Positions 25,012 to 28,376 of a DNA stretch of 33,339 nt are shown here, in pieces. Origin of the DNA: Bacteriovoracaceae bacterium (lineage in GTDB: Bacteria > Bdellovibrionota > Bacteriovoracia > Bacteriovoracales > Bacteriovoracaceae); NCBI GenBank assembly GCA_947442115.1, contig CANEVK010000001.1:1-33339 (forward strand), read 5' to 3'. The notes under the pieces are model-generated. The model was not told the origin of the DNA and did not search any database. It was given only the letters and a program-made list of their open reading frames with translations. Made by a program: the position numbers and the translations under genes. Every line of letters starts with the position of its first letter. Within the stretch, counting starts at the first letter, position 1.

Positions 25012-25032
25012 TTTTTCAAATCTGAAACGCCT

Positions 25033-25051
25033 TGTTTTAGTAACTAAAACA
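25033..25051. promoter_or_regulatory. Palindromic candidate upstream activator site (bEBP enhancer)
   Basis: Perfect inverted repeat TGTTTTAG-TAA-CTAAAACA (TGT-N13-ACA), about 100 bp upstream of the predicted sigma54 start site. Confidence 0.45.
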
Positions 25052-25112
25052 GCTGGGCCCCTGTTCAATCTTCAAGCTATCGTATTTATTTGAATTTGAG
25101 GGTTTTACTTTC

Positions 25113-25129
25113 TTGGCATTGTTCATGCT
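25113..25129 (+). promoter_or_regulatory. Putative sigma54 (-24/-12) promoter
   Basis: TTGGCATTGTTCATGCT has GG and GC separated by exactly 10 nt; consensus is YTGGCACG-N4-TTGCW. Confidence 0.6.
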
Positions 25130-25176
25130 TAGATGATTCCAAACCAAATTTTTTGGCGAAACATCTAGGAGGATTT

Positions 25177-25386
25177 ATGACAAATAAAATTTTAGTTCTT
25201 GCGATTTTTTCAGTTTTCTCAGTTTTGGGCTTTAATGTACTAAAAAATACTTCGGCTACAAAAGAGTTAGCTAAAACTCAGTTAAAGTACTCTGGTGCAA
25301 CTCAATCAGCATTTAATGATGAGTCTTTGCATGCTGGAGTCGGTGGAACATGGTCTGGTGCTGGACCTATTGGTGGCAAACGCTAA
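25177..25386 (+). CDS. Small secreted/membrane-anchored Gly-rich peptide (69 aa; candidate precursor peptide)
   Basis: AGGAGG SD before ATG 25177; hydrophobic N-terminus (KILVLAIFSVFSVLGF); C-terminal AGVGGTWSGAGPIGGKR; tandem stops TAATGA followed by a hairpin. Confidence 0.8.
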   Translation: MTNKILVLAIFSVFSVLGFNVLKNTSATKELAKTQLKYSGATQSAFNDESLHAGVGGTWSGAGPIGGKR

Positions 25387-25388
25387 TG

Positions 25389-25432
25389 ATTTGCCCCAGA
25401 TCTTAAATAAAGACCTGGGGCAAATAATATTT
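25389..25432 (+). terminator. Stem-loop after the peptide gene (terminator or stabiliser)
   Basis: ATTTGCCCCAG(A)TCTT-AAATA-AAGA(C)CTGGGGCAAAT is a long stem with one mismatch, followed by an AT-rich tail. Confidence 0.65.
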
Positions 25433-25448
25433 TAATAGGGAATGAAAA

Positions 25449-25853
25449 ATGATCTTAAAGGGATTAAATATTTTAACGGCACGAGAGTTTTTAAATTTAA
25501 TCACTGCTGTTAATTGGGGGACGGAAAAGAATTTCACCACTGATGGCCTAAATTTGGCAATTTCATCCTCGACTCAAATCTATGGCATCCGAAACGACAA
25601 TGGAGAGCTGGTCGCAATCTCAAGAGTCTTAAGTGACAATTATCTCTTTTCAACTGTTCCAGAAATACTCGTTCATCCTGATTATCAAAAAAAAGGATTT
25701 GGTAAAATGTTGATGGAGGAAGTTAAGAAAGATTTCTCCCATACCGCTATTTTTTTTGGAGCTCAACCTGGGAATGAAGGTTTCTTTGAAAATTTAGGTT
25801 TTCAAAGAGGGATGCAATCTTTTACTTCTAATAGGGAACTTCCTAAAACTTGA
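25449..25853 (+). CDS. GNAT family N-acetyltransferase
   Basis: LVAISRVLSD...ILVHPDYQKKGFGK.LM (acetyl-CoA binding motif A) and FFENLGF. Confidence 0.9.
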   Translation: MILKGLNILTAREFLNLITAVNWGTEKNFTTDGLNLAISSSTQIYGIRNDNGELVAISRVLSDNYLFSTVPEILVHPDYQKKGFGKMLMEEVKKDFSHTAIFFGAQPGNEGFFENLGFQRGMQSFTSNRELPKT

Positions 25854-27549
25854 TCTTTGCGTATATTCTATCTAACGCTAAACTGTAATCATTTGAAGAT
25901 AAGATCGTGAATGTTCCATCTTGATTGATCCCAATCAATGAAGTCCCTGAAGCCATTTTCCCGACTGAAAAGAAAGTACCTTCTTTCAGGTAGCCACCCC
26001 AGCAAGACCCTTCTTTAGTGCAAGGAAGCTTATTTAAATCAATTTTTTTAATTCTTTCTTCAAGTTCATGAATGTTTCCAATAATACCAAAGGCGGAATC
26101 GAATATTTCATTTCGAAGTGGACGCTTAGAAGCCTTGATGAGTGAGCTGTCTTTTAATTTATTTATTTCGAAATTTTCTTTGTTCTTACTCAATTGGTGA
26201 ATGTGATTCCCCACCAAAACATAATTAATATTACTGTAGAGATATCCTTTGTTGTGACTAATATCATAGAGGTTTTTCAACTCTTTAACTTTGTCATCAT
26301 AAGGCCTATCTATAAGACCACTTCGATGAAATAAAAGTTCATTCAGTGTTAACCTGGATCCATCTTTGATTATTATTTTATCGTCTCGACTGAGAAGACC
26401 TTTTTTTTCTAGCTCTAGAACTTTAATCGCCGTTATGAGCTTCGTTATGGATCCATATTCAATTTGGATGTTTGACAAATCCCTAGGGTCGACTTGAGTT
26501 ATCTTATTTGCTTGAATAATCTCTGCAAGATTGTTTTTTTCTTTCATCGCGAAATGATAAATGAGAACTTTTGAGTCCGTTTTTAAGCTCGATTGAAGGT
26601 TTTTTAAATCTTCAGGGGGTAAATAATCAGATCTTAATTTATTTGGGCTTATGGCAAGAAGAACTACGATGAAAAGTATGATGAGAGATATGATCCCCAT
26701 GATGATCTTTTTTGATAGAAGCTTCAAACGTTCTTTAGCAAAAAAAAGATCATCCTTCGTCAGAAAGATAGAATAATTAAAAATCATGACCAAAGAAAAC
26801 ATAATCAATCCGATATGAAAGGCGATTCCTATATGGATTAGTACTCCTAGTGCTAAGGGAATTAGTCTCCATCTCGCAATCGGAAGTAGTGTGAACAGAA
26901 GCAATTGGGCGATAATTGTTGAGTAAGTGAGGATATTTACGATGAGAGGAAATGTTGCAAAGAGGTCAATCAGAAGCGAACTATAGAATTTATCGATTTG
27001 AACAATATAATGGAGTGCGGTCCCATTTTGCCAAAGCGATCCAGCCATCTTTGATATGAAAGCACAGAAATAAACGATGAGGATTTGGGCCTGAATGGCC
27101 CTGACTGCAAATCCTTTAATGAGTTTGGTTGATTCCCCCCATTTTATGGGAACATCCATAAGAATGGCGTAGAAGAGGCTCAGATGCATAAGATTATTTC
27201 CGCCATCCTGTACCGTCCAGGCCTTGGCATCTAATAACCACACAAAGTACCAGAGCATAAATCTAAGTAGTAGATTTCTTCTCCCAAGAAGGAAATACAG
27301 AGCGAGGACAAGAGTTGAAAAAAAAACGAAAGGTGTTATTGAGGGATACAATGTCAAAAGGTCTAAGTAAAACGGCAGCTCTCTCCCATATACTTGACGG
27401 CTTAATATCAAGTTTTCCGTCGATCCCCATAATGATTCATATAATGGTATTTGAAAGATAAAATTGAGAATGATCCAAAGACTTGTTAACGAAGTGAAAA
27501 TATGAATTCGAAAGTCGAGATCTTTGACTTCTTTAAAGAACTTATCCAT
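25843..27549 (-). CDS. HTTM/SdpB-like multi-pass membrane protein fused to a C-terminal serine beta-lactamase/S12 peptidase-like domain
   Basis: N-terminal ~270 aa has DGGNN, Q..IVYF.A..SK..G..WQNGTAL.Y, LTY and G..IH.GI....GL..FS..M (HTTM). After another TM helix come GSITK (SxxK), LL.HRSGL and Y.YSN.NY.L.G (YxN). Confidence 0.8.
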   Translation of the reverse strand: MDKFFKEVKDLDFRIHIFTSLTSLWIILNFIFQIPLYESLWGSTENLILSRQVYGRELPFYLDLLTLYPSITPFVFFSTLVLALYFLLGRRNLLLRFMLWYFVWLLDAKAWTVQDGGNNLMHLSLFYAILMDVPIKWGESTKLIKGFAVRAIQAQILIVYFCAFISKMAGSLWQNGTALHYIVQIDKFYSSLLIDLFATFPLIVNILTYSTIIAQLLLFTLLPIARWRLIPLALGVLIHIGIAFHIGLIMFSLVMIFNYSIFLTKDDLFFAKERLKLLSKKIIMGIISLIILFIVVLLAISPNKLRSDYLPPEDLKNLQSSLKTDSKVLIYHFAMKEKNNLAEIIQANKITQVDPRDLSNIQIEYGSITKLITAIKVLELEKKGLLSRDDKIIIKDGSRLTLNELLFHRSGLIDRPYDDKVKELKNLYDISHNKGYLYSNINYVLVGNHIHQLSKNKENFEINKLKDSSLIKASKRPLRNEIFDSAFGIIGNIHELEERIKKIDLNKLPCTKEGSCWGGYLKEGTFFSVGKMASGTSLIGINQDGTFTILSSNDYSLALDRIYAKIKF

Positions 27550-28109
27550 TAGTCTAACTCCAGAAGCTCAACTCCCTTATTGGGAATAGTGTATTCTGAA
27601 TTAAAGGCTTTTGCGTGTTCTATATATATTGCTAACTGATGAGGTCTAGAGCGACAAACATGGTATCCAAGATTTTGAGCCTTTATGTAGGCATCTTCTT
27701 TTTTTATCCATAATTTAAATTTCTTTTCACACTCACTGAGTCCAAATTGTGAACAACGAGTTTCTTCTAAAAAATCAGATCTTAATTTTATAATCGCCGC
27801 ACTGATTGAATTGAACAAGAAAATAGATTTTTGTAAATGAACAAAAGGAAAAGTGGAATTTCTTTTTAAAATATCTTGAGTCGGGTCTATCCAGTCTTCA
27901 CTGCTCATACATTTCATGACCAATCTCGCGGAAAAAGTGAGTGGTTCCGGTGCGAAAAGGTGCCATCTTTGTTCAAAAATGGGCTCTACATATTTTGAGA
28001 CCCATGGATTGGTTAATTTTTTTAAATGACCATCTGGTAACATGTAAATTGATATACAGAGAAAATGAAAAATAAAAATAATGATTAAATAATTTTGTCT
28101 GGTCTTCAA
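27549..28109 (-). CDS. DUF5819-like (SdpA/YitP-like) partner of the HTTM protein
   Basis: One N-terminal TM helix ending HF..I.IY.LP, then W...Y..P.FEQ.W.LFAP.P. TAATG coupling to the HTTM gene. The TTG start has no clear SD. Confidence 0.72.
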   Translation of the reverse strand: MKTRQNYLIIIFIFHFLCISIYMLPDGHLKKLTNPWVSKYVEPIFEQRWHLFAPEPLTFSARLVMKCMSSEDWIDPTQDILKRNSTFPFVHLQKSIFLFNSISAAIIKLRSDFLEETRCSQFGLSECEKKFKLWIKKEDAYIKAQNLGYHVCRSRPHQLAIYIEHAKAFNSEYTIPNKGVELLELD

Positions 28110-28124
28110 GTTGTCAGTTTTTGA

Positions 28125-28155
28125 ATAAATTCCCCACGAGGAGTGGGGAATTTAT
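28125..28155 (-). terminator. Stem-loop downstream of the 72-aa gene
   Basis: Perfect 13-bp inverted repeat ATAAATTCCCCAC-N5-GTGGGGAATTTAT, 2 nt after the stop at 28158. Confidence 0.7.
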
Positions 28156-28157
28156 AA

Positions 28158-28376
28158 TTAGTTCAAATGTGTCTGATGAATATAAAGACGAAAAATTTTA
28201 TCTTTAGTTCGGCGGATGGAGAAATTTCCACTTTCTTTTTGTTCAACCAGGAATTGGTAATACTCAGGACGTGTATCAGCTATTTCTAAAACTGATTTTC
28301 CTTCAAACTCACCAAAATCAATCACAACGCGATCTTCTTCAATAATACCTGTTAGTGGACTTTGCTCCTGGGCCAT
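28158..28376 (-). CDS. Small hypothetical protein with an FG(K/E)xxG module (DUF3820/exonuclease-C-terminal-like)
   Basis: ATG 28376 follows GGAGGG; IDFGEFEGKSVLEIAD..PEYY.FL resembles the FGKYKG..V.E....Y..W repeat. Confidence 0.65.
   Translation of the reverse strand: MAQEQSPLTGIIEEDRVVIDFGEFEGKSVLEIADTRPEYYQFLVEQKESGNFSIRRTKDKIFRLYIHQTHLN

What the first reader, a model, noticed from the sequence alone, without database searches (positions are those of the whole stretch)
25033..28109. Candidate undescribed peptide-maturation locus: Gly-rich precursor and GNAT facing a DUF5819 plus HTTM-peptidase pair
Seen in sequence: a 69-aa gene with a hydrophobic leader and a Gly/Ser/Thr-rich tail (AGVGGTWSGAGPIGGKR), a GNAT, and a convergent coupled pair (DUF5819-like gene, TAATG overlap, HTTM protein with an S12-like domain). 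The block sits between two metabolic/housekeeping regions and looks more AT-rich by eye. Established: SdpA/SdpB-type pairs (Bacillus sdpABC and the paralogous yitPOM) are needed to mature a secreted peptide toxin, and HTTM is related to the vitamin K-dependent carboxylase membrane domain. Inference: there is no ~200-aa SdpC-like gene here, so the short peptide may be the substrate. It would be exported, trimmed or modified by the HTTM-S12 protein, with the GNAT acting in tailoring or self-protection. That would be a new RiPP-like toxin or signal in a probable predatory bacterium.
Basis: partly seen in the sequence, partly recalled or inferred. Interest (0 to 1): 0.8.

Follow-up and report, generated by a model that had tools for sequence, protein, structure and literature searches.

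The report
Exported peptide with its maturation kit
A four-gene cassette inserted in the genome of a likely predatory freshwater bacterium couples a small peptide with a fixed ten-residue core to a two-part membrane enzyme related to the human vitamin-K carboxylase and a fused peptidase-like domain, which likely export, modify and trim the peptide into a so far undescribed product.

Summary
The 69-aa peptide, GNAT, DUF5819 and HTTM-S12 fusion form a 3.1-kb block inserted between two genes that are adjacent in 4 of 5 relatives. Among 50 other genus genomes the peptide and the full-length fusion occur in the same 2, side by side, at other sites, once re-ordered into one co-directional run. The conserved part is not the Gly tail but a core, [LI]HA[GE][IV]GGTWS, kept in 18 of 18 sequences from three precursor architectures. 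The HTTM domain folds like human GGCX and keeps the lysine aligned to K218; the S12 domain keeps SxxK and YxN. DUF5819-HTTM plus a peptidase plus a signal-bearing precursor recurs in Bdellovibrio, Streptomyces and Bacillus loci, some precursors with the linaridin PxxxTP motif. Best reading: an SDP/linaridin-like pathway working in the periplasm (likely epimerisation and/or Thr dehydration, then S12 cleavage). The GNAT also occurs alone in 2 genomes, so it is more likely protective or accessory. Chemistry, product and toxicity are untested. New variant of a known, mechanistically unsolved kind.

The parts
25167..25172 (+). Shine-Dalgarno AGGAGG of the peptide gene
   Evidence: sequence
25177..25386 (+). 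69-aa precursor peptide: predicted signal peptide (about 1-27), helical pro-region, conserved core, variable Gly-rich tail
   Evidence: 5-8 synonymous against 1-2 non-synonymous codon changes per pair over 19 core codons in three genomes
25177..25257 (+). predicted Sec signal (residues 1-27; S26 and A27 each kept in at least 90% of 11 aligned precursors)
   Evidence: hydropathy; alignment; cleavage site inferred, no signal-peptide predictor was run
25327..25356 (+). core motif LHAGVGGTWS (residues 51-60), preceded by SAFNDES (25306-25326)
   Evidence: LHA[GE][IV]GGTWS in 17 of 17 aligned sequences of two families and IHAGVGGTWS in P0032
25386..25428 (.). hairpin after the peptide gene (terminator-like or mRNA-stabilising)
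   Evidence: a hairpin also follows the gene in G062 (-23.5), none in G064
25449..25853 (+). 134-aa GNAT acetyltransferase, no signal peptide; in all 3 sequenced modules, also alone in 2 genomes
25843..27549 (-). 568-aa HTTM-S12 fusion membrane protein
26764..27549 (-). HTTM/SdpB-like domain (residues 1-262), GGCX fold; invariant D115-GGNN, K167 (codon 27049-27051), W173, H239
25846..26640 (-). compact S12 serine-hydrolase domain (residues 304-568) behind a ninth membrane helix (282-300); S367-x-x-K370, Y438-S-N440; third motif reads SVG, without the usual His/Lys
27549..28109 (-). 186-aa DUF5819 protein: N-terminal membrane helix, QxWxLFAPxP motif, four conserved Cys; stop overlaps the HTTM start (TAATG)
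25012..28157 (.). whole inserted block between the NUDIX-MBL gene (ends 25011) and the 72-aa gene (ends 28158)
   Evidence: these two genes lie 40-74 bp apart in G031, G011, G036, G064

Best explanation
The four genes travel together as one inserted cassette, and they likely form a peptide-maturation pathway in which the 69-aa precursor is predicted to be exported to the periplasm, likely modified in its LHAGVGGTWS core by the DUF5819-HTTM pair (most likely linaridin-type epimerisation and/or dehydration of Thr58), and likely cut free by the fused S12 domain. Step by step: (1) shown: the cassette, its co-occurrence and the core motif; (2) inferred: Sec export after A27; (3) shown by fold and alignment: HTTM is GGCX-like and keeps the lysine that aligns with K218; inferred from the cited preprint: DUF5819 completes it as a split enzyme with a menaquinone site; (4) inferred from a helix count: K167, the DUF5819 body and the S12 domain all face the periplasm; (5) inferred: proton abstraction on core residues gives D-residues and/or dehydrobutyrine rather than carboxylation; (6) inferred: the S12 domain, from a family rich in D-specific amidases and peptidases, removes the pro-region and tail, possibly only after modification; (7) inferred: the cytoplasmic GNAT protects the producer by acetylating product that gets inside, or is an accessory. 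The product would be a short (about 10-20 residue) secreted competition or signalling peptide. Odds: about 0.8 that the peptide is the substrate of this machinery, about 0.45 for the whole chain with epimerisation/dehydration.
For: Co-occurrence: peptide in 2 of 50 other genus genomes, full-length fusion in the same 2 of 50; four genes contiguous in both, different flanks, one rearranged to a co-directional run. Peptide profile: 3 real matches in 237 family genomes, all in modules. The other three fusion homologues (P0003, P0005, P0006) each share their longest-contig length (6578, 9520, 502615) with a peptide homologue (P0013, P0016, P0015): same contig inferred, DNA not seen. Insertion: flanking genes adjacent in 4 of 5 relatives. 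Core under purifying selection and kept in 18 of 18 sequences. HTTM model (pLDDT 86) has GGCX as its top 16 Foldseek rows, TM 0.59-0.70 for the first 15; profile alignment puts K167/W173/H239/F251 on GGCX K218/W223/H287/F299 (my count). The same K/W/F spacing (+6, +84) is in the DUF5819-HTTM complex of 10.64898/2026.08.19.745780. Host has menA over cut-off and a menD-like gene on the same contig. S12 fold Z 19.9, rmsd 3.6 A, 244 aligned, Ser/Lys/Tyr/Asn invariant. The recipe precursor + DUF5819 + HTTM + peptidase recurs: Bdellovibrio L044-L047, family loci L096-L098, L101, Streptomyces plasmids with S12, Bacillus plasmid with S8; five of these precursors carry PxxxTP, the linaridin cleavage motif named in PMC9927463. 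Linaridin clusters pair an HTTM protein with a hydrolase, often fused, and carry D-residues. Complex prediction of peptide with HTTM+DUF5819: weak support, 0.43 against best control 0.07, runs agree in at least 45% of contacts, partner pLDDT at least 51; the mark was reached by 116 of 157 solved and 2 of 215 mismatched pairs, but at 0.60 or under by only 18 of the 157 and by both mismatches.
Against: No product, expression or activity data. The peptide lacks PxxxTP and has only one conserved Thr. No LinL or LinG sequence was in hand, so DUF5819 = LinL was not tested. GGCX H160 is not kept (Q114, my count). The S12 third motif lacks the His found in the stand-alone S12 proteins of related loci, so activity may be altered. 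G062, 91% complete, gave no menA or menD match. The GNAT has no signal peptide and stands alone in G030 and G063. In the window the peptide and the pair are on opposite strands. Five peptide clusters (P0008-P0010, P0012, P0014), the six 120-aa proteins and P0032 have no visible context; if they lack the pair the linkage is weaker. The three genomes are kin, so the co-occurrence is not a statistical test.
Confidence: 0.45

Rival explanations
1. Same cassette and substrate, but the pair is a true menaquinone-dependent carboxylase (GGCX/MloH type) that adds CO2 to D48/E49 or to a core alpha-carbon, giving a metal-binding or aminomalonate-bearing peptide; S12 then trims it.
For: GGCX fold and K218-equivalent; DUF5819-HTTM resembles GGCX and MloH in 10.64898/2026.08.19.745780; MloH alpha-carboxylates Asp; host has menA; every 69-aa-type precursor keeps at least one acidic residue before the core.
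Against: D48 is Asn in P0016 and E49 is Gln in P0013; the 120-aa family has no acidic residue before the motif in 5 of 6 members; the invariant ten residues hold no Asp or Glu; GGCX H160 is not kept.
Confidence: 0.22
2. SDP-like processing without side-chain chemistry: the pair acts as a scaffold or chaperone that presents the exported precursor to the fused S12 peptidase, and the product is an unmodified short peptide.
For: SdpA and SdpB are described only as needed for processing SdpC to SDP (PMC6818787 passages); TIGR04033 is the only NCBIfam hit of all 14 aligned HTTM proteins.
Against: The GGCX-type lysine and pocket residues are invariant in 14 of 14 HTTM proteins (K167, W173, H239), which a scaffold would not need; a dedicated peptidase is supplied separately in many related loci.
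Confidence: 0.15
3. The conserved motif is a docking or inhibitor sequence, not a product: the peptide is a small periplasmic or membrane-anchored partner that regulates the HTTM or S12 domain, whose real substrate is a cell-envelope polymer (S12 relatives such as DltE, FmtA and DD-peptidases act on wall polymers).
For: The same motif sits in 120-aa proteins straight after a hydrophobic N-terminus and before a folded-looking tail; top S12 fold matches are DltE and FmtA-like.
Against: Related loci always carry a signal-bearing small protein that varies widely in sequence, some with repeated cores, which fits substrates better than regulators; strong RBS and own hairpin fit a highly made precursor.
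Confidence: 0.12
4. The peptide/GNAT and the DUF5819/HTTM-S12 pair are unrelated cargo that happen to share a mobile island.
For: The site is an insertion hot spot (G062 has other cargo there); the GNAT moves alone; opposite strands in the window.
Against: The four stay together at three unrelated sites and through a rearrangement, at 42-60% protein identity; no peptide without the fusion among the 237 family genomes.
Confidence: 0.06

Closest known systems
Linaridin machinery LinH (LinG HTTM + LinE alpha/beta hydrolase), LinL, LinM (cypemycin, grisemycin, corynaridin)
   Same: HTTM protein with a hydrolase, fused or split, plus a small partner of unknown function, a short precursor and an N-acting transferase. 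Related Bdellovibrio precursors carry PxxxTP.
   Different: Hydrolase is S12, not alpha/beta; transferase is a GNAT, not a methyltransferase; precursor has a predicted Sec signal, no PxxxTP, one conserved Thr; no ABC exporter or decarboxylase; host is a diderm, while all but two of 561 surveyed linaridin clusters were actinobacterial. That LinL equals DUF5819 was not tested.
Bacillus subtilis sdpABC / yitPOM
   Same: SdpB-family similarity (TIGR04033, below cut-off); a small membrane-anchored partner upstream; precursor with a secretion signal.
   Different: No 200-aa SdpC with a hydrophobic C-terminal toxin; core is short and polar-to-Gly-rich; fused peptidase; no SdpI/YitQ-type membrane immunity gene; TIGR04034-type SdpA model did not hit any of 13 DUF5819 proteins.
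Vitamin K-dependent carboxylases: human GGCX, Streptomyces MloH, and the predicted DUF5819-HTTM split form (10.64898/2026.08.19.745780)
   Same: Fold, K218/W223/H287/F299 equivalents, DUF5819 next to HTTM as in the preprint.
   Different: H160 not kept; DGGNN motif instead; no DCC1 domain here; a ribosomal precursor and an S12 domain are added. The preprint passages I saw name no substrate.
S12 serine hydrolases ClbP, R61 DD-peptidase, alkaline D-peptidase, DltE, FmtA
   Same: Fold Z 18-20, SxxK and YxN; ClbP is likewise a membrane-tethered maturation peptidase (recalled).
   Different: About 265 residues, shortened helical domain, third motif SVG/TIG; attached to the C-terminus of an HTTM enzyme.

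Membership tests
Linaridin cluster | HTTM (LinG-type) membrane protein | tested here: inconclusive
   HTTM/GGCX fold and SdpB-family hit shown; no LinG sequence or custom HMM available for a direct comparison
Linaridin cluster | LinE alpha/beta hydrolase, fused or separate | tested here: not met
   the fused hydrolase is S12/beta-lactamase fold; no other gene in the block
Linaridin cluster | LinL homologue | not testable with these tools
   DUF5819 occupies the place, but no LinL sequence or model was available
Linaridin cluster | precursor with PxxxTP cleavage motif and Thr-rich core | tested here: not met
   absent from 11 aligned precursors; present in related Bdellovibrio-type precursors
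Linaridin cluster | dehydrobutyrine in the product | not testable with these tools
   needs mass spectrometry; T58 is invariant
Linaridin cluster | LinM N-methyltransferase (usual, not universal) | tested here: not met
   GNAT instead; corynaridin also lacks it
sdpABC-type operon | SdpB family (TIGR04033 over cut-off) | tested here: not met
   42.6-45 bits against 178.4: distant relative only
sdpABC-type operon | SdpA family model | tested here: not met
   no SdpA-named NCBIfam hit for 13 of 13 DUF5819 proteins at E 0.1; PF19136 hits instead
sdpABC-type operon | about 200-aa secreted precursor with hydrophobic C-terminal toxin | tested here: not met
   69-aa precursor with polar/Gly core
Vitamin K-dependent carboxylase-like (HTTM) superfamily | GGCX membrane fold | tested here: met
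   top 15 rows GGCX, TM 0.59-0.70; E 2.4e-4
Vitamin K-dependent carboxylase-like (HTTM) superfamily | active-site lysine (K217/K218) | tested here: met
   K167 aligns to K218, invariant in 14 of 14
Vitamin K-dependent carboxylase-like (HTTM) superfamily | His160 equivalent | tested here: not met
   Q114 (L/M in relatives) by my count; alignment is gapped nearby
Vitamin K-dependent carboxylase-like (HTTM) superfamily | carboxylase activity with a K vitamin | not testable with these tools
   host menA present; activity needs an assay
Peptidase family S12 | fold, SxxK and YxN | tested here: met
Peptidase family S12 | third motif H/K-T/S-G | tested here: not met
   SVG/TVG/TIG in the fusions; only the Gly is invariant

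The most novel reading that the evidence does not exclude
A new RiPP class of diderm predators: a periplasmic, menaquinone-using split GGCX-type enzyme rewrites the chirality (or backbone) of a ten-residue HAGIGGTWS core, and a fused D-selective S12 peptidase releases only correctly modified product. It would be the smallest member of a wide, undescribed DUF5819-HTTM-peptidase family with Sec-exported precursors, and a one-plasmid handle on what SdpAB, LinG/LinL and bacterial GGCX relatives actually do.
Probability: 0.3. Interest if true: 0.85.

Novelty: new variant of a known kind. Interest (0 to 1): 0.64.

Why it matters
The chemistry of HTTM/DUF5819-type enzymes in peptide maturation (SdpAB, linaridin LinG/LinL) is poorly understood, and the recent structural proposal of a split vitamin-K carboxylase names no substrate in the passages I read. 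This cassette supplies a short candidate substrate with a sharply defined ten-residue core, the enzyme pair and a built-in peptidase in 3.1 kb, so carboxylation, epimerisation, dehydration and pure proteolysis can be told apart in one co-expression experiment. It also points to unexplored peptide natural products in predatory Bdellovibrionota.

Tried and rejected
Repeats and promoter scans: nothing above chance except the hairpin. Fusion as stop-loss artefact: rejected. Peptide as shadow ORF or conserved RNA: rejected by the codon pattern. Peptide has no Pfam hit and only sub-cut-off NCBIfam hits; ESM Atlas best hit 0.76 (Phr-like), below lead level, not used. Two weak peptide-profile hits (G066, G071, E about 0.006, one with stops) and one in G737 (an outer-membrane-type protein) were dropped as chance; so were six repeat proteins among the 9 rows (P0013, P0007, P0032 kept; four rows read). 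Peptide not found in viral contigs, in 3 Bdellovibrio-type genomes or otherwise in 351 genomes of that class. The 120-aa family was not found in 401 phylum genomes, so its context stays unknown. Futalosine pathway not found in 5 genomes. No RNA holder listed; contigs from four runs cover the block in pieces with no joints, one may be the source of the window. The full-length fusion was searched in the genus but not in all 237 family genomes; there only DUF5819 (24 of 237), GNAT and peptide were searched. Literature: no paper with HTTM+SdpB+peptide; one paper with DUF5819; searches listed nothing describing this peptide family, an HTTM-S12 fusion or such clusters in Bacteriovoracaceae (listings only; most subscription journals are not held). 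PMC3697648 and PMC2941285 were not held; preprint supplements were not seen.
Full report
Observation. Pfam gives GNAT, beta-lactamase/S12 (residues 364-451) and DUF5819 over their cut-offs; NCBIfam gives SdpB (TIGR04033) at 42.6 bits, far below its cut-off of 178.4. The peptide has no family. A strong hairpin follows the peptide gene. GC is 0.354 against 0.390 +/- 0.021; 35 of 682 genome windows are as low, so composition alone is weak evidence. None of the peptide, DUF5819 or fusion has a close paralogue in this 76%-complete genome.

Host. Homologues are from records titled Bacteriovoracaceae and Halobacteriovorax, so 'probable predatory bacterium' is reasonable; DNA of the block is held by lake and freshwater metagenomes.

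The block is a unit. The HTTM-S12 fusion has five full-length homologues at 42-50% identity. The peptide was found in 2 of 50 other genomes of the genus (G062, G064); the full-length fusion was found in the same 2 of 50, while 30 others had only partial, mostly HTTM-only matches. In G062 the order is as in the window; in G064 it is peptide-GNAT-DUF5819-fusion, all on one strand; flanks differ in all three (L035/L041 and L042 are the same DNA as these two and are counted once). Among 237 family genomes the peptide profile had 3 real matches, all in modules, and 2 weak ones that I dropped. The remaining three fusion homologues share their longest-contig length with a peptide homologue (6578, 9520, 502615); I infer the same contig but did not see that DNA. 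In 4 of 5 relatives tested the genes flanking the block (NUDIX-MBL and a 72-aa gene) are 40-74 bp apart; the fifth has other cargo there. The block is therefore an insertion at a hot spot, and the modules in G062 and G064 are also lower in GC than their flanks. These genomes are kin, so this is not a statistical test.

The peptide. Eleven aligned precursors show a hydrophobic N-terminus, S26-A27 (predicted signal cleavage), a short pro-region with L31/K35/L36, then SAFN[DN][EQ]SLHA[GE][IV]GGTWS[GA]A and a variable Gly-rich tail. Over 19 core codons, three genomes differ by 5-8 synonymous and 1-2 non-synonymous changes per pair. A second family of six 117-120-aa proteins carries LHAGIGGTWS right after a hydrophobic N-terminus, with an 80-residue tail, and P0032 carries IHAGVGGTWSGA. 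The motif is thus kept in 18 of 18 sequences examined (17 plus P0032); acidic residues are not part of it. The context of the second family and of P0032 could not be seen.

The enzyme pair. A model of residues 1-276 (pLDDT 86, pTM 0.84) finds human GGCX as its top 16 Foldseek rows, TM 0.59-0.70 for the first 15. A 14-sequence profile aligns to GGCX at E 2.4e-4; by my count on that alignment K167, W173, H239, F251 and D107 match K218, W223, H287, F299 and D153, while H160 is replaced. K167, W173, H239 and DGGNN are invariant in 14 of 14. That K218 is the catalytic base is recalled; PDB titles of K217A/K218A mutants appear. A preprint (10.64898/2026.08.19.745780; passages) predicts that DUF5819 and an adjacent HTTM protein form a split GGCX/MloH-like enzyme with a menaquinone site at Lys189/Trp195/Phe273, the same spacing as K167/W173/F251. 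The host has menA over cut-off and a menD-like gene on one contig; G062 gave neither. Counting the helices from a cytoplasmic N-terminus puts K167 and the S12 domain on the periplasmic side; conserved Cys pairs in DUF5819 and S12 fit this. This topology is inferred. A complex prediction of peptide with HTTM and DUF5819 gave weak support: 0.43 against best control 0.07, contacts agreeing at least 45%, partner pLDDT at least 51; in calibration 116 of 157 solved and 2 of 215 mismatched pairs reached the mark, but at 0.60 or under only 18 of the 157 and both mismatches.

The S12 domain (304-568) has the full fold (Z 19.9, rmsd 3.6 A, 244 aligned), with S367-x-x-K370 and Y438-S-N440 invariant, is shortened, and lacks the His of the third motif. 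Its nearest solved relatives include ClbP, R61 DD-peptidase, alkaline D-peptidase, D-amino-acid amidase, DltE and FmtA-like proteins; specificity cannot be read from this.

The GNAT is in all three modules, between peptide and DUF5819 in G064, but orthologues at E below 1e-65 stand alone in G030 and G063. With no signal peptide it cannot easily reach a periplasmic N-terminus, so protection or an accessory role is more likely than linaridin-style N-terminal tailoring.

The wider family. Signal-bearing precursor + DUF5819 + HTTM + peptidase recurs: Bdellovibrio loci L044-L047 with a separate S12 and 200-aa two-core precursors; family loci L096-L098 and L101; two Streptomyces plasmids with S12 and one Bacillus plasmid with S8. 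Five precursors (L043-L047) have PxxxTP before an Ala-rich core, the motif that PMC9927463 names for linaridins (passages). Linaridin clusters need LinG (HTTM), LinE (hydrolase; fused as LinH) and LinL (10.1101/2020.07.09.196543, passages); type-A linaridins hold D-residues and grmL may be an epimerase (PMC10373908, PMC10849128; passages). That CypH/CypL together epimerise, dehydrate and cut the leader is recalled; I saw only the title of that paper in reference lists. SdpA/SdpB are described as needed for processing SdpC (PMC6818787, passages); MloH alpha-carboxylates Asp (PMC12186529, passages). Two earlier AI notes of this scan reached a linaridin-like reading for other loci; they are not independent evidence.

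Mechanism. Most likely the precursor is exported, the split GGCX-type pair abstracts protons in the core to give D-residues and/or dehydrobutyrine at T58, and the fused S12 cuts the product free; the GNAT guards the cytoplasm. I put 0.8 on the substrate link and 0.45 on this full chain; carboxylation 0.22, processing without chemistry 0.15, regulatory partner 0.12, chance neighbours 0.06.

Verdict. It works like a linaridin/SDP maturation system but fails membership of both (no alpha/beta hydrolase, no PxxxTP, SdpB below cut-off, no SdpC). My nine literature searches listed nothing on this peptide family or the HTTM-S12 fusion; subscription journals and preprint supplements were not covered. 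New variant of a known kind whose chemistry is still open; interest 0.64.

Noticed in passing
L055:3729-8280, L056, L057:3018-6989, L058:7033-11581: A second, common system in this genus (HTTM-only matches in about 30 of 50 genomes): one or two DUF5819-like/HTTM pairs right after large secreted proteins (238-540 aa) with a conserved N-terminal domain, a membrane-like helix and long Thr/Gly/Asp/Asn/His repeats (GDNGRSGHN, GNNGNN, TTGTDGS). Candidate hypermodified precursors; undescribed as far as my searches went.
   Followed up: partly
L044:9548-10204, L045:9599-10198, L046, L047, L043:3052-3477, L036:6429-7226: Bdellovibrio-type precursors with Sec signal, two Ala-rich cores, PxxxTP before a core and an FD[LIV] follower motif; Streptomyces plasmid precursors also end in VFDK.
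   Followed up: partly
L096:2-802: Precursor-like ORF with at least nine tandem AGKTKQIWPGAEA repeats upstream of DUF5819-HTTM-S12; multi-core precursor candidate, cut by the contig end.
   Followed up: no
P0017, P0018, P0023-P0026, P0032: Other architectures bearing the LHAGIGGTWS motif; genomic context unseen.
   Followed up: partly
window 25327-25356 and 25846-26640: The peptide's H-A-G-x-G-G resembles the third-motif strand (W-H-N-G, T-H-A-G) of stand-alone S12 proteins, the very His that the fused S12 lacks. Possibly chance; substrate-assisted catalysis is a testable idea.
   Followed up: no
window 28126-28154: Hairpin behind the 72-aa gene leaves only about 17 bases before the DUF5819 TTG start, so the pair's promoter is unclear; GNAT and fusion 3' ends overlap by 11 bases.
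   Followed up: no
window 28158-28376: 72-aa protein, 86-94% identical in 5 of 5 relatives, only a weak ExoX-like C-terminal hit: a highly conserved small protein of unknown function.
   Followed up: no
L063:520-1893: The GNAT orthologue of G063 lies beside an integrase in a phage-like stretch.
   Followed up: no
L100:3758-6690: Short repeat-rich precursor, an unknown 294-aa gene, DUF5819 and HTTM without S12: another variant.
   Followed up: no
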